Virus record (IMG/VR): IMGVR_UViG_3300038829_000127 | Coordinates: 4,975 to 68,974 of that record | Strand: one strand, 5' to 3' | Origin: a virus | Length of the DNA: 64,000 nt | Shown here: positions 3,151 to 60,328 of the stretch, piece after piece | How the letters are laid out: every line of letters starts with the position of its first letter | How positions within the stretch are numbered: the first letter of the stretch is position 1 | Notes under the pieces: model-generated | The model's input: only the letters and a program-made list of their open reading frames with translations | The model's database searches: none | Told to the model about the DNA's origin: nothing | Made by a program: the position numbers and the translations under genes

Positions 3151-4716
3151 TTGACAAAACTGGGGGTGCTGATGGCTGCCGCAAGGAAGAAAGACCCCGA
3201 GAGCCCCACAGGCTCCGCCAACATCTCCACACAGCACCCGCAGTATTCACAGCAGGCGGATGCCTGGGAAACGCTGCGCGACTGCTACGGCGGTGAGCGG
3301 GCGGTCAAGGCCGCAGGAACCCGCTACCTGCCGCTTACTCCAGGGCAGATGAAGTTCGGGGCGCCGGGCACCAACAGCAAGGGCATGAAAGCCTACGAGG
3401 CGTACAAGGTCCGTGCGGTCTTCCCGGGCCTCGTGCGCAAGGCCGTTGAATCTAACCTGGGCATCATGCACAGGAAGCCGGCCATAATTGAGGCTCCGCC
3501 CGCACTGGACGGTTTCATCGACCACTGCACCCAAGAGGGCGAGGACATTCAGGCCCTCCTCCGCAAGATCAACGAGCAGCAAATCCTACCCGGCAGGGTA
3601 GGATTTCTCCTCGACCTCCCCGCCGACACCAGCACCAAGCCCACCCCCTACATTGCCGTCTACGAAGCCGAGACGATCATCAACTGGGACACGGACATCG
3701 GCCCCGATGGCAAGCGGCGCCTGACGCTGGTGGTCCTGGCTGAGATGCGGCATGTGCGCACCGACCGGTTCAGTTGGGAGATCAAGCCTTTCTACCGGGT
3801 GCTGGAGATCAACTCAGACGGCAATTACCAGCAGACGCTGTATGACAACCAGACACAGGTCAATACGCTGGTCCCGCTGGTGCGGGGCGAACCGCTCAAG
3901 GAAATTCCCTTCTGCATCGCCAACACCAAAGACAACGCCCCGGACGTGGACACATCTCCGATTGAGGGGCTGGCAGCACTCTCACTGGCCATTTACCGTG
4001 GTGAGGCCGACCTGCGCCAGTCCCTCTTCATGTCCGGGCAGGACACGCTGGTGATCGAGGGTGGGGAACCGAACAAGGAGTACGGCACCGGGGCAGGCAC
4101 CATCCTCACACCATCCACGGGCAACAAGGTCTACTACGTGGGTGTCTCCACGGGCGGCCTGCAGGAGCAGCGGCACAATATCGAGGGTGACAAGCAGATT
4201 GCCCTGACTGAAAGTGCGCAGCTCTTTGACACGACCAGCCGGCAGAAAGAGTCCGGGGATGCGCTCCGCATCCGGGCTGCCGCCTCCACGGCCACGCTGC
4301 AGCAGATTGCACTGACCGGGGGTGCTTGCGTAACCCGTCTTCTCCGTATGGCAGCTATCTGGATGGGTGTTTCAGAAGACGAGTCACGCAAAATCCTCTG
4401 CAAGCCCAACCTGGACTTCACGGCTGAATCCGTCTCCGGCAAGGATCTGACCGACATGATGACGGCCAAGATGCTCGGTGCCCCGTTCTCGATGCAGGAG
4501 ATCCATGAGTACGGGCGCCGCGGCGGGGTGACGGACAAGACGTTTGAGGAGAGCAGCGACATGATCGAGATGGAGCCGCCGCTGCCTGGCCCTAGCCGTC
4601 TTCCGCCCAGCCAGGATGCAGGGCAGCCGAGCGGCGGGCCGCCGAAGAAGGCCCGCCAGTCGCCTTCGATCAAGAACGGTAGTGGCTTGAAGCCCAACAG
4701 GCCCGAGATGCAGTAA
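3151..4716 (+). CDS. portal protein (DUF4055-like)
   Basis: position after terL; HPQY...WETLRDCYGGERAVKAAGTRYLP and AY..Y..RAVF motifs. Confidence 0.88.
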   Translation: MTKLGVLMAAARKKDPESPTGSANISTQHPQYSQQADAWETLRDCYGGERAVKAAGTRYLPLTPGQMKFGAPGTNSKGMKAYEAYKVRAVFPGLVRKAVESNLGIMHRKPAIIEAPPALDGFIDHCTQEGEDIQALLRKINEQQILPGRVGFLLDLPADTSTKPTPYIAVYEAETIINWDTDIGPDGKRRLTLVVLAEMRHVRTDRFSWEIKPFYRVLEINSDGNYQQTLYDNQTQVNTLVPLVRGEPLKEIPFCIANTKDNAPDVDTSPIEGLAALSLAIYRGEADLRQSLFMSGQDTLVIEGGEPNKEYGTGAGTILTPSTGNKVYYVGVSTGGLQEQRHNIEGDKQIALTESAQLFDTTSRQKESGDALRIRAAASTATLQQIALTGGACVTRLLRMAAIWMGVSEDESRKILCKPNLDFTAESVSGKDLTDMMTAKMLGAPFSMQEIHEYGRRGGVTDKTFEESSDMIEMEPPLPGPSRLPPSQDAGQPSGGPPKKARQSPSIKNGSGLKPNRPEMQ

Positions 4717-45116: not shown

Positions 45117-45325
45117 TGGAGCCTCCGTTGAGCCTCGTATTGTTCCTTGCTGATCGGTTCGATTTGCAACGTCACCCGATCCACATCCCACCGAAACTTG
45201 TGGGCAGCCCACGCCTCGGCCCGGGAGCGGATCGAAGTGTCGCTTGCGCCCCAATCCACTGTTTCAGCCTGAGCAACACCACCAAGCCGCGCCGTAATCT
45301 TCACGTAGGGCATACCTTCCCCCAC
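45113..45325 (-). CDS. hypothetical protein
   Basis: ORF track. Confidence 0.5.
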   Translation of the reverse strand: MGEGMPYVKITARLGGVAQAETVDWGASDTSIRSRAEAWAAHKFRWDVDRVTLQIEPISKEQYEAQRRLQ

Positions 45326-46059
45326 TCCTGCATGTACGTTTCATGCAGGAACGCATTGATGGCGGCAAGATCCGGCTCATCACGCAGGTTGCTTGTTCCC
45401 ATGGCCCGCTGCAGCGCCTGCTCCTGAGCCTCGATCATCTGCACCACGCGATCAAAGGTGATCTCACCTCGGCGTACCTGCATGAGCACTTCACGTTCAG
45501 CCGGCCGCATGGGCAGGCTCATCCGCCCTTCACCCACGATCTCAAGCCCCTGGTAGCCCAGACGGAGCGCGTGCATGGCGTACTTAGTATCGTAGCCATA
45601 CTGCTCGACCAGCTCGGGCCGCTTCACGCGCTTCTGCCCACGAACGCCCAGCAGCCGTTGCTTCTGGGCCAGCAGATAGCCCAGGAAGGCGTTGCCCGCT
45701 TTCTTTGAAACGATGGCCTTTCGCATCTGACGGAGTGCGTTTCCCCGGGCTGTCAGCACTGAGCAGTCCTGTGGCGGGACAAACAGCGGCATGAGGATTG
45801 TAGGATTGCCACCAGCCGCCAACCGCATCCATTTGCGCAGACCGTAGATCGTCAGGTCCAGATCCCCCGGGCCAGAGCGCACTCCCTCGGGCTGTGTCCG
45901 CTCCACGATGTGCTCACGGTACTGGAGCCCGGTCACAGCTTCTTTGGGCTCGATCATAATGCCCATTTCGTCCCGGTCGTCGGTGCCTTCAAGGGCCAGA
46001 CCGTGTACGGTGGAACCCACCGTGCAGCGGATGATCAGTTTGGCATCATCAGACTTCAT
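45301..46059 (-). CDS. Pol-beta superfamily nucleotidyltransferase (RlaP/YcgL-like)
   Basis: GSTVHGL....DDRDEMG (GS..DxD); GNPTIL..LF; YDTKYAMHALRL. Confidence 0.85.
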   Translation of the reverse strand: MKSDDAKLIIRCTVGSTVHGLALEGTDDRDEMGIMIEPKEAVTGLQYREHIVERTQPEGVRSGPGDLDLTIYGLRKWMRLAAGGNPTILMPLFVPPQDCSVLTARGNALRQMRKAIVSKKAGNAFLGYLLAQKQRLLGVRGQKRVKRPELVEQYGYDTKYAMHALRLGYQGLEIVGEGRMSLPMRPAEREVLMQVRRGEITFDRVVQMIEAQEQALQRAMGTSNLRDEPDLAAINAFLHETYMQEWGKVCPT

Positions 46060-53133: not shown

Positions 53134-54360
53134 TCAGTCCTTGTACGGATCTTCCACATCGTCACCCGCCATCGCAACTCCGATCGGCGTCAACGTATGC
53201 AGAACCTTGATGGTGTCACCGTGGGCCTCGAGCACTTCCGGCAGCCGCTTGTAGCAGTGCGGCGACTCATCCACACCGGCTCCGCGCAGCTCCACATTCA
53301 TGGGCCGGATCCAGTTGTCCATCATCTCACGGGTCACGGCGCCACCGGTCTGCGACACAACGACTCGGCGGCCCTCGGCATTGCGCCCGAACTTCCGCTT
53401 CCCGGCCGCCTTGGTGCGGCTCATTACCCGACCGGCCCCGTGAACCGTAGAGTAGAAGGCTGTCTGGGAGTCGATGGACTCCACGCCCTCAATGATGACG
53501 GACACGTCGCCCATGGATCCGCCCACGAACCCACGCTGCCCGGGAAAGGCAGGTGTGGCGCCCTTGCGGACGACCCAGACCATCTCCCCCAGATGCTCCT
53601 CCAGCCAGGCGAAGTTGTGGTGGTTGTGCACCCGATCCAAGACGGGAGCCCCGATCAGGCTGGCCACGCGGTCGCATACCCAATCACGACCGGCGTAGGC
53701 GTACTGACCGGCCAGGTCCATGCAAGTCAGGTAGTTCTGGCCCAGTTCACTGTTCACAGGCAAGAGCACCGGGTCCACGTCGATACCATCCTTGCCGCCA
53801 CCCGCCTCGATAAAGTAGGTAGCGATCTTGTGGCCCAGGCCACGGCTGCCGAAGTGGACGCCGCACCAGACACGTTCCTGCTCGTCCACGAACAGGTCCA
53901 CGTAATGGTTGCCGGAGCCAATGGTCCCGAGCTGGTTCTGCGCCATGCGCTTCAACGGGGCCGCAGCCCGCAGCTTCCAGGCCGGATGACCGTCAGCCTC
54001 AAAGAGCGGGTGCTCAACCGACTCGTTGTTGTTCAGGCCGACACCGAACGAAAGCGTCTTCCAGATATCGTCCATGATCGTCTTGATATTGGCCCGGACC
54101 TCGGCAGCCGAAACATCCAGCAGCACCGCACAATTGCCACAGGCGATGTCGAAGCCAACGCCGTTCGGGCTGATCTTGTCCTTGTAGACCAGCACGCCAC
54201 CCACCGGGGCGGCGTACCCCTGATGGTTGTCGGCCATCAGGGCACAAGCATCCGCCGTCTCGAAGCAGTGGAGGATCTGGCGTTCGGCACCTTCGTCGGG
54301 CACACCGAAGACCGGGATGCTGTCTATTCCGTCCTTCTGGAGCCAGGTGAGGCGGCTCAT
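53134..54360 (-). CDS. rtcB: RtcB RNA ligase
   Basis: MADNHQGY, GFDIACG, GSGNHY, HFGSRG, HNHHN, RKGAT, HGAGRVMSR, DESPHCYK. Confidence 0.96.
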   Translation of the reverse strand: MSRLTWLQKDGIDSIPVFGVPDEGAERQILHCFETADACALMADNHQGYAAPVGGVLVYKDKISPNGVGFDIACGNCAVLLDVSAAEVRANIKTIMDDIWKTLSFGVGLNNNESVEHPLFEADGHPAWKLRAAAPLKRMAQNQLGTIGSGNHYVDLFVDEQERVWCGVHFGSRGLGHKIATYFIEAGGGKDGIDVDPVLLPVNSELGQNYLTCMDLAGQYAYAGRDWVCDRVASLIGAPVLDRVHNHHNFAWLEEHLGEMVWVVRKGATPAFPGQRGFVGGSMGDVSVIIEGVESIDSQTAFYSTVHGAGRVMSRTKAAGKRKFGRNAEGRRVVVSQTGGAVTREMMDNWIRPMNVELRGAGVDESPHCYKRLPEVLEAHGDTIKVLHTLTPIGVAMAGDDVEDPYKD

Positions 54361-55757
54361 CGAGCCGCCTCACTCTCATTCTCTTCCAGCGCAATCCACT
54401 CCACCAACCGCTCCGACCAGCCTGAGATGCGCGACCAACCGTTGCTCAGTTCCAGCGCGGGCTTGTAGCCGGCGACGTTGACGATATAGCCCTTGGCCTG
54501 CCGCACCTTGATGCCCGAGTCGGCCGCCTGTTCGTCAGTGACCACAATCGTCCGAGCGGGCTCGGGCAGGGTTTCTGCCATCTTGGCCAGCGCCTGCCCC
54601 AGATAGGTGCCGCCGTTCGGCTGCGAGTTCCACAGCGCCTCGATCAGCGGCAGCCCACGGTAGGCCGGAGCCTCCACCAGCTTCGTGGAGAACGTGAAGA
54701 TCCGGCAGTCCTCGCAGATTTCCCGCAGGAGGATGGCCAGGGCACCAGCCGCCTGGTAGCGGCGGAGCGTGCTCTTGGCCGACAGCGCATCGGACATGGA
54801 GCCCGACACGTCCACCAGCAGGTACGTCATGCCCGGGAGCCTGGGCGCCTCCTCGACGGCCAACAGCATGGCCTGCGAGAGAGCATCGACCATGGACGGG
54901 GCGGCCAGCGCGGCGGAGACGAATCGGAAGGGGAGGGCTTTGGACTTCCGGGCACCGGCCAACAGGGCAGCGTTGATCAGCGCCCGATCCACACCCGCCC
55001 CCTCCATGTTCCGCAGATTCATCAGAAGGGCCATGTACCCGAGCTTGTTTTCCGTGAGCAGCCGGGTGAAGGCTTCCTTCTTGTCAGCGCCGCCCGACAG
55101 GGCCACTTCCCATGTGTCCGGGGTGGCCAGGGTGCCGTTGACGATCTTCTCGTAAAGCAGTTCCCGCTCGGTCGGCTCGTACGGCCGGACAGGGCTTTTC
55201 TTCCGATCGGCCCGCACCCAATCAAAGTTGGCCGGCTTGGCATGGCACACGAAGAGAGCGTCACGCAGCTTGACCGCACCGTCCCGGTTCCACTTGGCCA
55301 ACTCGTGCTCACTGAACTTGGCGAATGCCAAGCTCAGGCCCTTCTTCACCTGGGCAGACACCGGGCACTTGCCGTCCTTCCAGTAGATGGACAGGAACTC
55401 GGCCAGTTCATCGGCACGCTGGATCGTCTCGCGCAAAGTGCGGGAGACGATGCCCGGGTCAGCGGTGCGGCCCGGATGCCGGGCCAGTTGCCGCACCAGG
55501 AACAGCGAGACGTGCCGCAGTTTCATGGCAGTGCGTGTGCTCACAGCCAACTCCGCCAACTGCTGCGGAGTTACCTGCAAGCACAGTTCCTCGATCCGCG
55601 CTGCGATCTCGGAGCCCGATTCGTAGAACGTGTTCTCGAACAGCATGCAGGTGGACACGGCCCGGGTCAGTTCCTGGAGGGGCGTCTGGTGCCGATCGGC
55701 CCGGCCCCCTTCATGGGTGACAACGGGCGGGAGCTTGGTGCAGGTGTTGGTCTTCAT
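54357..55757 (-). CDS. rsr: Ro60 autoantigen homologue (TROVE + vWA)
   Basis: FENTFYES, RADELAEFL, LAKW, LRDAL...H.KP, ALLMNLRNM, LPFRF, VDVSGSM, GGT, VTDEQ; ATGA overlap with rtcB. Confidence 0.95.
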   Translation of the reverse strand: MKTNTCTKLPPVVTHEGGRADRHQTPLQELTRAVSTCMLFENTFYESGSEIAARIEELCLQVTPQQLAELAVSTRTAMKLRHVSLFLVRQLARHPGRTADPGIVSRTLRETIQRADELAEFLSIYWKDGKCPVSAQVKKGLSLAFAKFSEHELAKWNRDGAVKLRDALFVCHAKPANFDWVRADRKKSPVRPYEPTERELLYEKIVNGTLATPDTWEVALSGGADKKEAFTRLLTENKLGYMALLMNLRNMEGAGVDRALINAALLAGARKSKALPFRFVSAALAAPSMVDALSQAMLLAVEEAPRLPGMTYLLVDVSGSMSDALSAKSTLRRYQAAGALAILLREICEDCRIFTFSTKLVEAPAYRGLPLIEALWNSQPNGGTYLGQALAKMAETLPEPARTIVVTDEQAADSGIKVRQAKGYIVNVAGYKPALELSNGWSRISGWSERLVEWIALEENESEAAR

Positions 55758-55776
55758 GGGGTTCTCCGTTTCTAGG

Positions 55777-55814
55777 TTCACTCATTCGACTGCACCAGCA
55801 GGCGAATGAGTGAA
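55777..55814 (-). promoter_or_regulatory. leader hairpin before the rsr ribosome-binding site
   Basis: TTCACTCATTCG-CCTGCTGGTGCAGT-CGAATGAGTGAA. Confidence 0.6.
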
Positions 55815-55847
55815 AGCCCTTGTTGGCCTGCAGTGAAAAACAGCACC

Positions 55848-55903
55848 CGGATCAGTCAACCACAGGGGTCATCTGCTAGAGGAAGTACCTGTAGTCTACG
55901 CCA
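55848..55903 (-). ncRNA. Y-RNA-like unit E (minimal)
   Basis: TGGCGTAGAC-TACAGG-TACTTC...CCTGTG-GTTGACTGATCCG. Confidence 0.75.
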
Positions 55904-55920
55904 GGGCGCAAAACAGTGAG

Positions 55921-55975
55921 CGGATCAAACAGCTACGGGAGCACTTACGATGAGAAGTACCCGCAGCCTACGCCA
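55921..55975 (-). ncRNA. Y-RNA-like unit D (minimal)
   Basis: TGGCGTAGGC-TGCGGG-TACTTC...CCCGTA-GCTGTTTGATCCG. Confidence 0.75.
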
Positions 55976-55993
55976 GCCCACAAAGAGCGTACT

Positions 55994-56115
55994 CGGATCA
56001 GACGGTAAGGGAACAGACCGCCGCCTCTGCCAGTTGGGCTACCCTGCCGTCTATTGGCAGGAGCTGGACTCGAACCAGCACATGAACGGTTCCGAAGTAA
56101 CCCTAGCCTACGCCA
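55994..56115 (-). ncRNA. yrlA: YrlA-type Y RNA (permuted tRNA mimic), unit C
   Basis: shared scaffold plus T arm GCTGG-TTCGAGT-CCAGC, closed acceptor hairpin TCCTGCC-AATAGAC-GGCAGGG, D arm TAGCCCAACTGGCAGAGGC, in T-AS-D order; next to rsr. Confidence 0.85.
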
Positions 56116-56133
56116 GAGTACAAAGAGAACGGC

Positions 56134-56191
56134 CGGATCAAACAACCACGGGATATTTTCTACCCAAGAGAAGTACCCGTAGTCTACGCCA
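56134..56191 (-). ncRNA. Y-RNA-like unit B (minimal)
   Basis: TGGCGTAGAC-TACGGG-TACTTC...CCCGTG-GTTGTTTGATCCG. Confidence 0.75.
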
Positions 56192-56213
56192 GGCCGTAAA
56201 ACAAGAGCGGAAT

Positions 56214-56308
56214 CGGATCAGACGGCTGAGGAGCAGTCCGGATTGACCCGGACACCCAACCGGCTTGCGCCAGTGAGTCTTAACCGAAGTAGCCCCAACC
56301 TGGCGCCA
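56214..56308 (-). ncRNA. Y-RNA-like unit A with two-hairpin cargo
   Basis: TGGCGCCAGG-TTGGGG-CTACTTC...CCTCAG-CCGTCTGATCCG; internal GCAA-capped hairpin and GTCCGG/CCGGAC hairpin. Confidence 0.7.
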
Positions 56309-56378
56309 GATTCCAAGGGATCACGGAGAAGGGTGGTCGTTCAGTTCCTCTCCGTTTCTAGTTTCTTCAACGAGGGGA

Positions 56379-56407
56379 AGTATACCACCCCGCTCGGGGC
56401 GGGTCAA
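56379..56407 (-). promoter_or_regulatory. sigma70-type promoter for the Y RNA-rsr-rtcB operon
   Basis: TTGACC-17 nt-TATACT on the - strand. Confidence 0.8.
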
Positions 56408-56682
56408 CCTTTTTCGTGCACAACCAGCCCTTCTGTCTGCAGCCAGTTCGCACACCGATGTGCCCAGAAGGAATCGTTCCGCGCCTTGAGCAGCGCCTTC
56501 CCCTCCCGGGCATTCAGCACCGGCTCAACCTGCATCCACGTTTTCCCTGACTGCAGAAACCGTGTGACCAGGACGAACCCCTCTGGCTGCCGGATCATCC
56601 ACTGCTCGCACTGGACGTTATCGCCGGCCGTCCAGTCGAAGGGGAGCTGGCTGTAGATCCAGTCTTCGACGTTAGTAGGCAT
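56404..56682 (-). CDS. hypothetical protein
   Basis: ORF track; GGGGAG SD. Confidence 0.6.
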   Translation of the reverse strand: MPTNVEDWIYSQLPFDWTAGDNVQCEQWMIRQPEGFVLVTRFLQSGKTWMQVEPVLNAREGKALLKARNDSFWAHRCANWLQTEGLVVHEKG

Positions 56683-56945: not shown

Positions 56946-57163
56946 TCTTCCTCCGCATACTCATCCGGATCCTCACCCACATACTCCGCATGCCCCCGCC
57001 CGCACTTCGGGCAGGTCCACGTCTCCGTGCTGTTCCACACCTCGATCGCTACCAGCCCGACGAAGCCGCAATCCTCATCTGAGCAGGCCCGGTTCTCTTC
57101 CATTTCGCGCTCCGCTCCGGCGATTTCGTACTCGGCGCCGGTTACTCCTGCGGGGTAGCTCAT
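56942..57163 (-). CDS. small acidic zinc-ribbon protein
   Basis: CSDEDC and CPKC. Confidence 0.65.
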   Translation of the reverse strand: MSYPAGVTGAEYEIAGAEREMEENRACSDEDCGFVGLVAIEVWNSTETWTCPKCGRGHAEYVGEDPDEYAEEE

Positions 57164-58296
57164 CCTTTCAGCACCTCCACGATAAGCTGCCGCAGGGTCA
57201 CATCGTTACCTGCAGCGGCAGAGTCCTTATCGGCTGTCATGGTAATCGCCAGCGTGCCGGTGGTGTCAACGGTGGGCAACCCTCCCGCCAGACTACCGCT
57301 CTGTGTGTCCAGGCTGCCACTTGCACCAATGGCTAGAACAAGCAGATCAGCCTGAATCGTAATCCATGCCGACTCGCCGGCAGAATCGGTTGTGCCGGCC
57401 AGCACACAAACCTGTCCACCGCACTTGAGGGCCAGCATACAGTTCACTCCGTCCATGGCATATGTGATATGTGCCGTGACCCGGATCACGTCGCCCACGG
57501 CAAGGCTGTTTGCCGGGATCGTGTAGGATGACGAAAACGTCGTTTCATCTACCGTGTTGCCCACCGTGTTGCCACCAGGGACGCTCGTGTTGCTGTAGGC
57601 TTTTGGGCGAGTGACCCACCCATCCAGCTTTGCGCTGGCATCCGCAACAGGTATCTTGCTGGCCGTTGGTGTAGCCGTGGCGTTGGCCGGGTCCTGCACG
57701 ACCTTGGAGCTGCCGTCCAAACTGGCGTAGCCCGAGGCGGCGGCCTTGTTCGCCGTCTTCTCGAGCGCGGCATCGTTCGTCAGGTCTGTTGAGGCTAGCA
57801 CCCCGGTCAGTGGCGTCTGCGGATCGGCCAGGAGCCCGGACAGACCGGCCACGCTGATCTCATCCACGGAACCGTTCTGGTGGGTAACTGCGTGGGCCGT
57901 AGGCGCACGGGAATCTATAAACCTGGCGTCGTCCCCCTCTGCCACCGTTCGGGCCGTTACCCCAAACTGCACCAGAAACCGTGCCGGGTCGATCCCGGTC
58001 GTAGTTGCTCCGTCCAGAATGGCAAAATCGAAGACGGCTCCGTCCGTGTTACAGGCGGCCAGGTTGACGTTGGTCAGATCGGCATGGGTCAGGTTGGCGT
58101 TTGAGAAATCCGTGTTGCCCGTGCTGGCGTCCGTCAGGTCCGCGCCAGTCAGGTCCGCGCCACGGAACGATGTGTTGGTCAGGGTGGTGCCGGCAAGAAT
58201 GGCCCCGGACAGGTCGGCCCCGGTGTAGTTGTTAAATGACAAATCGGCCGCCGTGAAGTCTAGCCCGGACAGGTTTTCATCCACATGCTCTGACAT
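57160..58296 (-). CDS. pentapeptide-repeat domain fused to tail-fibre-like sequence
   Basis: about 18 A(D/N)Lxx repeats, then D.R.PTAHA..H..G..D and EKTANK.AA.GYASLDGS.KV motifs. Confidence 0.75.
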   Translation of the reverse strand: MSEHVDENLSGLDFTAADLSFNNYTGADLSGAILAGTTLTNTSFRGADLTGADLTDASTGNTDFSNANLTHADLTNVNLAACNTDGAVFDFAILDGATTTGIDPARFLVQFGVTARTVAEGDDARFIDSRAPTAHAVTHQNGSVDEISVAGLSGLLADPQTPLTGVLASTDLTNDAALEKTANKAAASGYASLDGSSKVVQDPANATATPTASKIPVADASAKLDGWVTRPKAYSNTSVPGGNTVGNTVDETTFSSSYTIPANSLAVGDVIRVTAHITYAMDGVNCMLALKCGGQVCVLAGTTDSAGESAWITIQADLLVLAIGASGSLDTQSGSLAGGLPTVDTTGTLAITMTADKDSAAAGNDVTLRQLIVEVLKG

Positions 58297-58666: not shown

Positions 58667-58851
58667 TCCGCGAGATAGCGCACCAGTGCGCGAGCATCAC
58701 GCTCCAGGGTTTTAGCATCGTCGGTGTGGGGCTTCAGGTAGCCTCCGGCCATGGCGCGCAGTTTGCTGGCGAACTTATCCAGATTGTCAGCTTGACGGTG
58801 CAGGGTGGCCTGCTCGTCTTTTCGCGTTTCTGAATCGCACAGGTTACACAC
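58657..58851 (-). CDS. hypothetical protein
   Basis: ORF track. Confidence 0.55.
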   Translation of the reverse strand: MCNLCDSETRKDEQATLHRQADNLDKFASKLRAMAGGYLKPHTDDAKTLERDARALVRYLAEWI

Positions 58852-60328
58852 CGGCCCCTCCCGTGCGGGCGCGGATGGCGGCCATCTCTGATTCTATTGA
58901 CCAGTGGCCATTGGCAAGAGCTTCGATTGAGTCGTTAAGACAGAACAGCGCAGCGTCGGCAGCCTGTAGATCATTGAAGTTGCCTCCGTAGCGAACCTTA
59001 GACAGAATTGCCGCCTGCCATCCAACGTGATAGGCAAGCGCTCTGCCGCTGTCCTGCGCCTTCTTCTCCGCCGTCTCGTAGAACTCCCGCAGACTGTGTA
59101 TCTCATGGTTCATTTTCTCGATGAGTGAGTCACGCTGCGCCACTCGACCCTCCGCCGTCTCGACGCGGGCGAGGGCGGCTTTCTCGCGCATAAACGCATC
59201 GCTGTGCAAGCTGGCCAGCTTTGCCTTTTCATCAAGCAGCCGTTCCGCCCTCTCCTTCTCCGCAGCGAGGGCGGAGCGGGCTTCGTCGCGCAGGCCCTTC
59301 TCACGTTTGTACGAATCCAACCAGTGAGCAACCATGTTGGTTTGGTACTTGTACCCACGCTCGAACCCGTTCCTCTCCTCCCGCAGAGTGCGGAGGCGGG
59401 CGAGCAAGCGGTCAATGATGTTTCGCGGACCAGCGGCTGCGACAAGACCAGCGGCTGCCAGCACGAAATATTCCGCATCTTGAATCAACTTCTCGTCCTC
59501 GTCCGCAGCGGGCGGGGGCTGATCCTTACGCGCCTGCACCAGCGACCCCCCTAGCGCCTCGACTATCTCCGCTTCGGTGCAGAAGACGTGATCCACCATC
59601 TTCACCATCAGCTCGGGCTCGCCCTCAGCCAAGAGGATCACCGTTTCCTTGCCCGCGCCCACGGCCCAGCCGAGTTCCAGGTGGGCGCTGCGGCCACATG
59701 GCTGCACCATGACGAACGTGTCGGCCCACTTCATGGCGTCGAAGTCGGACGCGAATCCGGCCACGGCAATGCGATGAGACAGGGCCGCCCGGTACTGGAC
59801 GGGCGTCCAGTTCTGCCAGTCCGCATCAATGTCGGACCAGCGGAAGCCGGTATTGCCCGGGGCCGGATTGCGGAAGTCGTAGACATCGTGGCCTTCCGCG
59901 CGAAGCATCTGCACCACGGCGGGCTGGCGTTCGTTTCGCCACGACGAGGCCACGTAGATTCTTCGGCTCGTAGCGGTTGGCAAGGTCACTCCACCATTCG
60001 CGGCGATGAGTCGCGTACCGCTAGCGGGCGCTTCCGGCTGGGCGGCGCGGAGGGCCAGCGCCAGCGCGGCCGCGATTGCAAGCCCGACGTTCCCGTGCGT
60101 GGGCCACGTATCGGGGTCGTATTTGAGCAGTTCCGCACAGGCGCGGCGGAGTTCTTCTTTCTCTTGCCGAAGCCGACCGGCAGTATTCTGGTCTTTCTGC
60201 CACCCATCACCGTATTCCTTGAGGCGAGCGGCTAGTGCGGCGGTGTGATGCTCGCACGATTGGCACAACGACCCCTCCTCGCTTAGTGGGACATCATCTC
60301 TGCCGCAGCACTGGCATACGGGGTTCAT
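58844..60328 (-). CDS. multidomain protein with a central nucleoside 2-deoxyribosyltransferase-like domain and coiled coils
   Basis: IYVASSWRN, GHDVYDF, DFDAM.WAD..V...PCGRSAHLELGWA.G. Confidence 0.8.
   Translation of the reverse strand: MNPVCQCCGRDDVPLSEEGSLCQSCEHHTAALAARLKEYGDGWQKDQNTAGRLRQEKEELRRACAELLKYDPDTWPTHGNVGLAIAAALALALRAAQPEAPASGTRLIAANGGVTLPTATSRRIYVASSWRNERQPAVVQMLRAEGHDVYDFRNPAPGNTGFRWSDIDADWQNWTPVQYRAALSHRIAVAGFASDFDAMKWADTFVMVQPCGRSAHLELGWAVGAGKETVILLAEGEPELMVKMVDHVFCTEAEIVEALGGSLVQARKDQPPPAADEDEKLIQDAEYFVLAAAGLVAAAGPRNIIDRLLARLRTLREERNGFERGYKYQTNMVAHWLDSYKREKGLRDEARSALAAEKERAERLLDEKAKLASLHSDAFMREKAALARVETAEGRVAQRDSLIEKMNHEIHSLREFYETAEKKAQDSGRALAYHVGWQAAILSKVRYGGNFNDLQAADAALFCLNDSIEALANGHWSIESEMAAIRARTGGAGV

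What the first reader, a model, noticed from the sequence alone, without database searches (positions are those of the whole stretch)
53134..56407. Phage-encoded RNA repair operon: promoter - Y-RNA array - Ro60 - RtcB
Seen: a near-consensus promoter (TTGACC-17-TATACT) points into about 600 nt of non-coding repeats, then rsr and rtcB, which overlap by ATGA. Established: Salmonella has rsr, yrlB, yrlA and rtcB in one RtcR/sigma54 locus, and Ro60 with YrlA occurs in some phages. Inference: this phage carries the whole module under its own sigma70-type control, with many more Y RNAs than usual. It could counter host anticodon nucleases or RNA-cleaving abortive infection by decoying the nuclease and re-ligating cut tRNAs. 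No RtcA or RtcR is visible in the window.
Basis: partly seen in the sequence, partly recalled or inferred. Interest (0 to 1): 0.9.

Follow-up and report, generated by a model that had tools for sequence, protein, structure and literature searches.

The report
Phage Y-RNA array, Ro60 and RtcB
A groundwater phage carries five small Y-type RNA genes in a row in front of genes for the RNA-binding ring protein Ro60 and the RNA-sealing enzyme RtcB; this is a real example of a known kind of RNA-care module, and similar unannotated RNA arrays sit next to Ro60 in many other phages.

Summary
On the minus strand of a complete 70.3-kb groundwater phage lie, in order:
- the only strong sigma70-like site in the window (TTGACC-17-TATACT, with TG);
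- about 620 nt of non-coding DNA made of five tandem Y-RNA-like units;
- a phage-type Ro60 gene (TROVE plus vWA/MIDAS);
- an RtcB gene with every catalytic residue kept, overlapping rsr by ATGA inside a 12-bp hairpin.

The five units share a covarying scaffold. A covariance model built only from them finds 2-9 copies beside Ro60, on its strand, in 19 other phage or MAG loci. It finds none in about 650 kb of Ro60-less phage DNA. One unit is a YrlA-type permuted tRNA mimic, one has only a T arm, and three are YrlB-like hairpins.

Five copies is normal for this phage clade, not exceptional. RtcA, RtcR and archease are absent. RtcB lies within 4 kb of Ro60 in only 2 of the 22 other Ro60 loci examined. 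No terminator follows rtcB, so transcription probably continues. The anti-nuclease role is untested, and the tRNA mimic has no anticodon loop.

It is a new variant of a known kind. The scan's earlier notes on this feature are all on this same window, not on other DNA.

The parts
56379..56407 (-). Sigma70-type promoter-like site: -35 TTGACC (56407-56402), 17-nt spacer, TG, -10 TATACT (56384-56379). The stop codon of the upstream 92-aa ORF lies inside the -35 element.
   Evidence: 10/12 matches, TG present; the only site scoring >=10/12 in 64 kb on both strands. for the ORF end.
56315..56372 (-). Predicted leader (inferred start near 56372), with a 9-bp hairpin built from an RBS-like copy of CTAGAAACGGAGA (56361-56349). 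It ends in ...CGUGAUCC. Together with the promoter it resembles a degenerate sixth unit.
   Evidence: repeats D6, D7 and I3. The transcription start is inferred, not measured.
56198..56314 (-). Y-like unit U1, long (117 nt). It has the scaffold, a GNRA hairpin and a T-arm-like hairpin, but no D arm. Its 5' motif is GGCGCCAG.
   Evidence: R1 66 bits; R2 51.5 bits; alignment and pair counts.
56122..56197 (-). Y-like unit U2, a short hairpin (YrlB-like). It has a 6-bp closing stem, a bulged GGCGUAG/UGAUCC helix, a 9-bp second stem, a loop that starts UACUUC and a U-rich tail.
   Evidence: Fold -27.4 kcal/mol, z -2.65; R1 82.3 bits.
55982..56121 (-). Y-like unit U3, long (140 nt), YrlA type. The scaffold carries a permuted tRNA-like module: T arm, a stem closed by a 7-nt loop, then a D arm.
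   Evidence: Rfam YrlA 25.2 bits, E 0.0064, at 56104-55991, below the gathering score of 69. R1 71.1 bits. ARAGORN calls no tRNA here.
55910..55981 (-). Y-like unit U4, a short hairpin.
   Evidence: Fold -28.5 kcal/mol, z -3.29, 0/200 shuffles as stable. R1 73.6 bits. R2 60.4 bits with filters off.
55836..55909 (-). Y-like unit U5, a short hairpin followed by UGUUUUU.
   Evidence: R1 81 bits.
55777..55814 (-). 17-bp hairpin in the rsr 5' UTR with no U tract after it. It is a candidate 5' protective or processing structure for the mRNA left after the Y RNAs are cut off.
   Evidence: Inverted repeat I1. Fold -30 kcal/mol, z -3.4. The function is inferred.
54357..55775 (-). rsr (phage-type Ro60): RBS CTAGAAACGGAGA at 55775-55763, ATG at 55757, 466 aa, stop at 54359-54357. 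It has a TROVE/HEAT ring and a vWA domain with the MIDAS motif DVSGSMS.
   Evidence: Pfam TROVE 34.2 bits. PHROG 850, E 3e-33. The only PDB match is full-length, to Thermus phage phiLo Ro60 (9KOP/9L5Y), E 3e-22.
54349..54373 (-). 12-bp perfect hairpin whose apex holds the rsr stop and the rtcB start (ATGA). The rtcB Shine-Dalgarno-like GAGG lies in the stem.
   Evidence: Sequence. Fold -27.9 kcal/mol, z -5.6, 0/200 shuffles as stable. Obligate translational coupling is inferred from this.
53134..54360 (-). rtcB, 408 aa (3'-phosphate/5'-OH RNA ligase).
   Evidence: Pfam RtcB 218 bits. PHROG 1075. Alignment to P. horikoshii RtcB keeps Asp95, Cys98, His203, His234, His329 and His404.
45301..46059 (-). 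RlaP-family nucleotidyltransferase (RNA-ligase-associated Pol-beta NTase). It is on the same strand, 7 kb downstream, and is a possible further RNA-repair component.
   Evidence: PF10127, 102.7-103.6 bits. The link to this module is inferred only.

Best explanation
This is a phage-encoded Ro60/Y-RNA ribonucleoprotein module joined to an RtcB RNA ligase.

Shown:
- Five tandem RNA genes share one covarying scaffold. Each has a 6-bp closing stem, a bulged helix (5' UGGCGUAG with 3' UGAUCC), a roughly 9-bp second stem and an invariant UACUUC.
- The distal part varies. It is a full YrlA-type tRNA mimic in U3, a T arm only in U1, and a small pyrimidine-rich loop in U2, U4 and U5.
- The same RNA family sits beside Ro60 in many phages.
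- The Ro60 has the ring and vWA/MIDAS architecture.
- The RtcB has all catalytic residues.

Inferred:
- The sigma70-type promoter drives one precursor covering the Y array, rsr, rtcB and probably the helicase gene beyond.
- Host endonucleases cut in the 6-11-nt U-rich linkers, and Ro60 binds and stabilises each Y RNA through the bulged helix.
- The different distal modules tether Ro60 to different host partners, such as PNPase or enzymes that recognise the tRNA elbow.
- rtcB is translated only by ribosomes finishing rsr, because its start lies in a 12-bp hairpin. Ligase and ring protein are therefore made together.
- RtcB reseals 2',3'-cyclic-phosphate/5'-OH breaks in tRNA or rRNA made by host defence or stress nucleases during infection.
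- Because RtcR/sigma54 sensing is absent, expression is pre-emptive rather than damage-induced.
For: Anatomy.

Structure within the array: 95.8% of cells paired, 9 compensatory pairs, 0/500 shuffles reaching the observed values.

Across 81 units from 20 loci: 90.9% paired against 61.6% in shuffles and 37-48% when partners are slid; 449 cells changed on both sides against 142 in shuffles.

Specificity: a model built from the window alone (R1) hits only Ro60 loci, on the Ro60 strand. R2 gives 77 hits in 865 kb, none in the 78 Ro60-less RtcB loci.

Long units in relatives score 30-52 bits against Rfam YrlA, and U3 scores 25 bits. The canonical GGCGAA motif appears in 11 of the 81 units.

Proteins.

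RtcB lies next to Ro60 plus Y RNAs in two other phages, in different gene orders and inside tRNA gene arrays (L022, L028).

Precedents: M. smegmatis YrlA and YrlB are processed from one precursor upstream of rsr (PMC4201824). Salmonella has an rsr-yrlBA-rtcBA operon induced by cut tRNAs (PMC7790460). phiLo Ro60 binds phage Y-like RNAs and host PNPase (PMC12135203).
Against: There is no expression, processing or binding data. Only DNA runs from groundwater hold this sequence.

No unit reaches Rfam's YrlA gathering score. The published GNCGAA motif reads GGCGUA here, and an A-to-U change at that position weakened phiLo Ro60 binding about 4-fold in vitro (PMC12135203).

Most Ro60/Y-array phages lack an adjacent RtcB, and 6 of 10 have none at all. 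Ro60/Y function therefore does not require RtcB, and the two may act independently.

The U-rich tails could act as partial terminators rather than processing sites.

An upstream gene abuts the promoter, so read-through transcription cannot be excluded. The promoter call is a consensus match only.
Confidence: 0.7

Rival explanations
1. PNPase capture. The Ro60/Y RNPs mainly bind and restrain, or retarget, the host 3'-5' exoribonuclease PNPase (a RYPER-like complex), to protect phage RNAs or disturb host RNA turnover and CRISPR RNA maturation. RtcB is a functionally separate passenger that happens to be fused to the operon.
For: The closest solved relative, phiLo Ro60, forms ternary complexes with its Y-like RNAs and host PNPase and slows PNPase in vitro (PMC12135203; homology). 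Most phages with this Ro60/Y array have no adjacent RtcB, and many have none at all.
Against: The ATGA overlap inside a 12-bp hairpin ties rtcB translation to rsr. Ro60+Y+RtcB adjacency recurs in three different arrangements and in bacterial operons (PMC7790460). The two roles are not mutually exclusive.
Confidence: 0.25
2. Nuclease decoy. The tRNA-like Y RNAs, made in excess, act as competitive inhibitors of host tRNA-cleaving defence nucleases, while RtcB reseals the tRNAs that are still cut.
For: U3 is a tRNA mimic with T and D arms. 36 of 40 long units in the family carry a T-loop-like motif. Two related modules lie inside tRNA gene arrays. The idea was proposed for Salmonella YrlA, which is not cut by the anticodon nuclease (PMC7790460).
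Against: Only 1-2 of the 5 units are tRNA-like. Three are plain hairpins with the same conserved scaffold, which a decoy role does not explain. U3 has no anticodon loop, which is the element read by PrrC-, RloC- and colicin-type nucleases. There are no data.
Confidence: 0.15
3. The repeats are not Y RNAs. They could be a stack of leaky terminators or attenuators, selfish REP-like repeats, or decayed tRNA genes.
For: Each unit is a long hairpin followed by a U-rich run. No unit passes Rfam's YrlA threshold. One terminator-like site was flagged inside U2.
Against: Terminator-like sites are no more frequent than chance. The conserved single-stranded and bulged motifs (UGGCG, UACUUC, UCC) and the covarying stems are kept across phages whose Ro60s are only 26-51% identical, always next to Ro60 on its strand and nowhere else in 865 kb. 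ARAGORN finds no tRNA in the array.
Confidence: 0.03

Closest known systems
Salmonella Typhimurium rsr-yrlBA-rtcBA RNA repair operon (Chen 2013; Hughes 2020, PMC7790460)
   Same: Ro60, one tRNA-like Y RNA (YrlA type), hairpin Y RNAs (YrlB type) and RtcB lie on one strand in one transcription unit.
   Different: The gene order differs: here the Y RNAs come first, whereas in Salmonella they lie between rsr and rtcB. There are five Y RNAs instead of two. RtcA is absent, and so are RtcR and sigma54 control. A sigma70-type promoter is present. rsr and rtcB are translationally coupled. The element is in a phage genome.
Thermus phage phiLo Ro60 with Yrl1/Yrl2 (PMC12135203; PDB 9KOP, 9L5Y)
   Same: It is the only solved protein found by sequence (E 3e-22, full length, MIDAS motif kept). 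It is a phage Ro60 with Y-like RNAs beside the gene, and its binding to RNA and to host PNPase was shown in vitro.
   Different: The proteins are only 26% identical. phiLo has no RtcB. The published Yrls were picked by CGAA motifs upstream of the gene. The elements that match this window's RNA family lie on the other side of the phiLo gene.
YrlA family (Rfam RF02553; Chen et al. 2014, PMC4201824: 254 bacteria and 22 phages, including CcrColossus according to PMC12135203)
   Same: U3 has the YrlA layout (Ro-binding stem, then T arm, a closed stem and a D arm) and lies within 4 kb of rsr on the same strand.
   Different: U3 scores 25 bits against a gathering score of 69. The 5' motif is GGCGUAG rather than GNCGAA(N)G. 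An invariant UACUUC follows the second stem and is not in the Rfam consensus. The other four units are not YrlA-like.
Mycobacterium smegmatis YrlA/YrlB (PMC4201824)
   Same: [quoted passage not shown] One is tRNA-like, and one is a hairpin with a possible T arm.
   Different: There are two RNAs, not five. Processing there involves RNase P at a 7-bp acceptor-like stem, which U3 does not obviously have. It is a cellular locus, not a phage one.
Deinococcus radiodurans Rsr/Yrn1/PNPase (RYPER) machine
   Same: It provides the working model: the Y RNA stem binds Ro60 and the distal part tethers a partner enzyme.
   Different: No sequence similarity to Yrn1 was detected. The partner here is unknown.

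Membership tests
Ro60 / Rsr (TROVE) | TROVE/HEAT-repeat ring domain | tested here: met
   Pfam TROVE 34.2 bits against a cut-off of 23, covering only residues 218-294. PHROG 850 over residues 11-459, E 3e-33. Full-length alignment to phiLo Ro60, E 3e-22. No 3-D model was made.
Ro60 / Rsr (TROVE) | C-terminal vWA domain with MIDAS DxSxS | tested here: met
   DVSGSMS aligns with DVSGSMY of phiLo Ro60. The Pfam vWA hits are just under their cut-offs.
Ro60 / Rsr (TROVE) | Binds Y RNAs | not testable with these tools
   Needs a pull-down or EMSA.
RtcB RNA ligase | RtcB domain above the curated threshold | tested here: met
   PF01139, 218 bits against a cut-off of 27.
RtcB RNA ligase | Metal ligands and the GMP-accepting histidine (P. 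horikoshii D95, C98, H203, H234, H329, H404) | tested here: met
   All six align with identical residues in the alignment to 4DWR/1UC2.
RtcB RNA ligase | GTP- and Mn-dependent 3'-P/5'-OH sealing activity | not testable with these tools
   Needs an enzyme assay.
YrlA (Rfam RF02553) | Reaches the family's gathering score (69 bits) | tested here: not met
   U3 scores 25.2 bits, E 0.0064, and the other units score nothing. Long units in relatives score 30-52 bits.
YrlA (Rfam RF02553) | T arm, closed stem and D arm (a permuted tRNA-like domain) | tested here: met
   Met for U3 only: the cmscan alignment covers model positions 1-114 with high posteriors over the T and D arms. U1 has only a T-arm-like hairpin. 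U2, U4 and U5 have none.
YrlA (Rfam RF02553) | GNCGAA(N)G motif near the 5' end (Chen 2014) | tested here: inconclusive
   The motif reads GGCGUAG in U2-U5 (one substitution) and GGCGCCAG in U1. In the wider family, GG(C/U)GAA occurs in 11 of 81 units and GG(C/U)GUA in 35 of 81.
YrlA (Rfam RF02553) | Within 4 kb of rsr on the same strand | tested here: met
   The units lie 80-560 nt upstream of rsr on the same strand.
Y RNA (general definition) | 5' and 3' ends pair into a long stem with a conserved bulged helix; size about 70-140 nt | tested here: met
   Folds and covariation. The units are 72-140 nt.
Y RNA (general definition) | Stably bound by Ro60 in vivo | not testable with these tools
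   No RNA data exist for this phage.
rsr-Y-rtcBA operon under RtcR/sigma54 | RtcA cyclase next to RtcB | tested here: not met
   No PF01137 match in the whole 70.3-kb record.
rsr-Y-rtcBA operon under RtcR/sigma54 | RtcR activator | tested here: not met
   No PF06956 match. A sigma70-type site is present instead.
rsr-Y-rtcBA operon under RtcR/sigma54 | rsr, Y RNA genes and rtcB contiguous on one strand | tested here: met

The most novel reading that the evidence does not exclude
Phage Ro60 genes generally come with a tandem library of Y-RNA adaptors, 2-9 per genome. All share one Ro60-docking scaffold marked by an invariant UACUUC, and each carries a different distal module (tRNA mimic, T arm only, or small loops). 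On this reading one ring protein is programmed to engage several host RNA enzymes or substrates at once, and here it is wired by obligate translational coupling to an RNA ligase. That would make Y-RNA arrays a widespread phage RNP toolkit that existing models miss: Rfam detects none of them at threshold, and some tRNA-like modules are annotated as tRNA genes.
Probability: 0.3. Interest if true: 0.7.

Novelty: new variant of a known kind. Interest (0 to 1): 0.5.

Why it matters
Ro60 and Y RNAs are conserved from bacteria to humans, yet what bacterial and phage Y RNAs do is still largely open.

This locus is a compact, promoter-defined and probably clonable case. A single 3.3-kb piece encodes five distinct Y RNAs, Ro60 and RtcB, which makes the Ro60-ligase link directly testable.

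The comparative result may be more useful than the locus itself. A covariance model for a phage Y-RNA family finds 81 units in 20 loci. Tandem arrays are the norm in this Ro60 clade, a UACUUC element is nearly invariant, and these RNAs go unannotated, or are called tRNAs, in cultured phages such as CcrColossus, Brevundimonas phage Gurke and Xanthomonas phage Tabio, where experiments are possible.

It also suggests that the natural RNA partners of the structurally solved phiLo Ro60 deserve a second look.

Tried and rejected
- Rfam at gathering thresholds found no YrlA in the window or in 11 related loci.
- An exact-pattern scan of viral contigs for the window's 5' motif plus UACUUC found nothing, so no near-identical phage is available.
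- No RNA sequencing run holds the locus.
- A Ro60-RtcB complex prediction gave 'no answer' (score 0.00). It is not evidence either way.
- Mapping the RNA-contact residues mutated in phiLo Ro60 onto this protein was abandoned, because chain and residue numbering could not be reconciled from the text.
- A sixth unit overlapping the promoter and leader is suggested by local similarity. Neither model calls it, so it is left as a note.
- Sigma70-like sites upstream of the arrays in relatives were checked. Convincing ones occur in only 2 of 17 loci (L010 at 12/12, L008 at 10/12). A dedicated promoter is therefore not a general feature, and several arrays lie inside tRNA clusters.
- The Chen 2014 supplementary tables and two Wolin reviews are not held. 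I could not check how many copies were already listed for CcrColossus.
- A bacterial genome scan with Ro60 gave only two MAG contigs, one of them with 4 units. No host could be assigned. The terminase resembles those of siphoviruses of Pseudomonas and alphaproteobacteria, at no more than 57% identity.

Full report
**What the DNA is.** The window is bases 4975-68974 of a 70,303-bp IMG/VR virus record that CheckV rates 100% complete. The sequence occurs only in DNA runs of one groundwater metagenome study. The left arm, on the + strand, holds terminase and structural genes. The right arm, on the - strand, is a tightly packed block of nucleic-acid metabolism genes. The large terminase is at most 57% identical to those of siphoviruses of Pseudomonas and alphaproteobacteria. 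GC content is 60%.

**Checking the observation.**
- TTGACC-17-TATACT lies at 56407-56379 with an extended -10 TG. It is the only site scoring 10/12 or better on either strand of the whole window. Shuffles give about 2.5 such sites per window, so the number is unremarkable. The placement, within about 65 nt of the first RNA unit and on the right strand, is what is informative.
- The next 620 nt or so have no credible ORF.
- rsr starts at ATG 55757, behind a GGAGA ribosome-binding site, and ends at 54357.
- rtcB runs from 54360 to 53134. The two genes overlap by ATGA.
- RtcA, RtcR and archease are absent from the whole record.

**The array.** Read on the minus strand, the non-coding stretch resolves into five abutting units: U1 56314-56198, U2 56197-56122, U3 56121-55982, U4 55981-55910 and U5 55909-55836.

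Each unit has the following parts:
- a 6-bp closing stem whose sequence differs in every unit but always pairs;
- a conserved bulged helix, 5' UGGCGUAG opposite 3' UGAUCC;
- a second stem of about 9 bp;
- an invariant UACUUC;
- a variable distal part;
- a 6-11-nt U-rich tail.

On the five-unit alignment, 95.8% of pair cells are standard pairs, nine pairs show changes on both sides, no shuffle out of 500 reaches the observed values, and sliding the partners drops pairing to 34-52%.

[quoted passage not shown] This is the YrlB/Yrn2 type described by Chen et al. (PMC4201824). U3 carries a T arm, a stem closed by a 7-nt loop and a D arm, which is the YrlA layout. It is the only Rfam hit: YrlA at 25.2 bits, E 0.0064, against a gathering score of 69. 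U1 has a GNRA hairpin and a T-arm-like hairpin but no D arm. ARAGORN calls no tRNA here.

**Is the RNA family real beyond this window?** A covariance model built only from the five units (R1) was run over 11 viral contigs that encode Ro60 relatives at 43-47% identity. It found 24 further matches at E < 0.005 in 10 of them. All are on the Ro60 strand and almost all lie just upstream of the gene. It found nothing else in the window.

As a negative control I used 80 viral contigs chosen for RtcB, plus two GenBank phages, 671 kb in all. R1 hit only the three loci that also encode Ro60.

A second model built from 29 units (R2) gave 77 hits at E < 0.01 in 865 kb. Again every hit was in a Ro60 locus and on the Ro60 strand. 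With filters off it recovers all five window units.

The final set of 81 units from 20 loci shows 90.9% pairing against 61.6% in shuffles, and 449 cells changed on both sides against 142. This alignment is fitted to the model, so the slid-partner control, at 37-48% pairing, is the fairer comparison. About half the units are short and half are long. 36 of 40 long units carry a T-loop-like motif, against 3 of 41 short ones. UACUUC is exact in 64 of 81 units and within one or two changes in 78 of 81. In relatives the long units coincide with sub-threshold Rfam YrlA hits of 30-52 bits, with E down to 7e-9.

**Copy number.** The window has 5 units. Counts elsewhere, where a range gives the R2 count first and then the count with weaker R1 hits or a copy seen by eye added:

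| Locus | Units |
|---|---|
| L010 | 8-9 |
| Caulobacter phage CcrColossus | 8 |
| L012 | 7 |
| Brevundimonas phage Gurke | 6 |
| L003, L004, L009 | 5 each |
| Xanthomonas phage Tabio, L028, L103 | 4 each |
| Other loci | 2-3 |
| Thermus phage phiLo | 1-2 |

Five units is therefore typical for this clade, not exceptional.

**The proteins.**
- Ro60: Pfam TROVE is above its cut-off, the vWA hits are weak, and PHROG 850 covers the whole length. The only PDB match by sequence is the Thermus phage phiLo Ro60 (9KOP/9L5Y), aligned end to end at E 3e-22 with the MIDAS DxSxS motif kept. Homologues occur in 95 GenBank phage records. A scan of 185,579 species genomes found only two, both MAG contigs. That scan reaches close relatives only.
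- RtcB: 218 bits to Pfam. All six metal or GMP residues of P. horikoshii RtcB are conserved.

**How tightly are Ro60 and RtcB linked?** In the window the link is as tight as possible. The ATGA sits at the apex of a perfect 12-bp hairpin (-27.9 kcal/mol, z -5.6) that also buries the GAGG upstream of the rtcB start. This predicts that rtcB is translated only by ribosomes that have just finished rsr. That is an inference.

Across phages the link is loose.
- None of the 11 Ro60 contigs has RtcB within 4 kb. The ORFs tested downstream of Ro60 in seven of them are instead band-7 proteins, an HD and poly(A)-polymerase/CCA-enzyme-like protein, a DNA ligase and a DNA polymerase A.
- Only 2 of the 80 RtcB contigs carry Ro60. 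L022 has three Y units, then Ro60, then RtcB. L028 has RtcB, four Y units, then Ro60. Both lie inside large tRNA gene arrays.
- At whole-record level, 4 of 10 other Ro60/Y-array phages encode RtcB, tens of kilobases from Ro60, and 6 do not.

The conserved core is therefore the Y array plus Ro60. RtcB is a recurrent accessory that has been joined to it independently. The recurrent neighbourhood of tRNA genes and tmRNA supports a role in tRNA or translation-RNA upkeep.

**Transcription unit.** No terminator-like site follows rtcB. The SNF2-family helicase gene starts 3 nt after its stop. The upstream 92-aa ORF ends inside the -35 hexamer. The module is best seen as an internally promoted segment of a longer leftward unit. 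Among relatives, convincing sigma70-like sites in front of the array occur in L010 (a perfect 12/12) and L008, but not generally.

**Mechanism.** See the best explanation. The steps that are shown are the RNA scaffold and its conservation, its association with Ro60, the protein identities and the intact catalytic and MIDAS motifs. The inferred steps are co-transcription, cleavage in the U-rich linkers, Ro60 docking on the bulged helix, distal modules acting as tethers, coupled translation, and RtcB resealing of breaks made by nucleases.

The precedents are these:
- single-precursor processing of YrlA and YrlB upstream of rsr in M. smegmatis (PMC4201824);
- the Salmonella rsr-yrlBA-rtcBA operon, induced by tRNA halves (PMC7790460);
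- phiLo Ro60 binding phage Y-like RNAs and host PNPase (PMC12135203);
- the view of TROVE proteins with a tRNA-like partner as an RNA-repair platform in jumbo phages (PMC7824862).

The decoy idea is not new, since it appears in PMC7790460. It fits only U3, and partly U1.

**Comparison and novelty.** Already described are phage Ro60 with adjacent Y-like RNAs (2014, 2025), phage RtcB, and bacterial rsr-Y-rtcB operons. What I did not find in the searchable literature (key reviews and supplements are not held) is the following:
- tandem arrays of up to 8-9 units as the normal state in a phage Ro60 clade;
- the UACUUC signature;
- the regular mix of tRNA-like and hairpin units;
- a phage module with rsr and rtcB translationally coupled behind a sigma70-type promoter, without RtcA or RtcR.

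I class it as a new variant of a known kind, with interest 0.5.

Noticed in passing
L096 (Thermus phage phiLo, MH673673.1) 3981-4051 and about 4169-4250: Two elements of this window's Y-RNA type, both containing GGGUACUUC, lie just 3' of the phiLo Ro60 gene. They overlap the annotated hypothetical CDS phiLo_25. The 2025 structural paper chose its Yrl1 and Yrl2 by CGAA motifs 'upstream', so the natural partners may be other or additional RNAs.
   Followed up: partly
L097 (CcrColossus, NC_019406.1) 1628-1695; L100 (Brevundimonas phage Gurke) 2266-2340: The annotated tRNA-Gln and tRNA-Ser lie inside Y-like units (R2 hits at 1624-1795 and 2268-2406) that also give sub-threshold YrlA hits. They are probably tRNA-like modules of Y RNAs rather than decoding tRNAs.
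   Followed up: partly
window 54349-54373 (-): A perfect 12-bp hairpin (z -5.6) has the rsr stop and the rtcB start at its apex and the rtcB SD-like GAGG in its stem. This looks like an obligate translational-coupling device.
   Followed up: partly
window 56315-56415 (-): The promoter and leader resemble a degenerate sixth unit (GGUAUACUUC..., a 12-nt complementary pair, ...CGUGAUCC). The -35 and -10 elements sit roughly where the UGGCG and UACUUC motifs would be. The promoter may have evolved from a unit.
   Followed up: partly
window 56349-56361 and 55763-55775 (-): The RBS-containing 13-mer CTAGAAACGGAGA occurs exactly twice in the window, once at each end of the array. The upstream copy has no start codon after it and forms a hairpin. 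This may be a trace of how the array was inserted or expanded within the rsr leader.
   Followed up: no
window 45301-46059 (-): An RlaP-family (PF10127) nucleotidyltransferase, a family named for its linkage to RNA ligases, lies 7 kb downstream of rtcB, next to a RecD-like helicase.
   Followed up: partly
L022 and L028 (IMG/VR contigs); L009; L100: Ro60/Y modules sit inside or beside large tRNA gene arrays (about 30 tRNAs in L028) and next to phage tmRNA genes (L009 and Gurke).
   Followed up: partly
L011 5419-6261; L013 6593-7441; crAss001 L099 6104 onward: SPFH/band-7 genes recur shortly downstream of phage Ro60. In L005 an HD and poly(A)-polymerase/CCA-enzyme-like gene is the neighbour.
   Followed up: no
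It is not part of this RNA family.
   Followed up: partly
window 57160-58296 (-) and 58844-60328 (-): A 378-aa pentapeptide-repeat protein and a 494-aa protein with a nucleoside deoxyribosyltransferase-like domain lie just upstream of the module.
   Followed up: no
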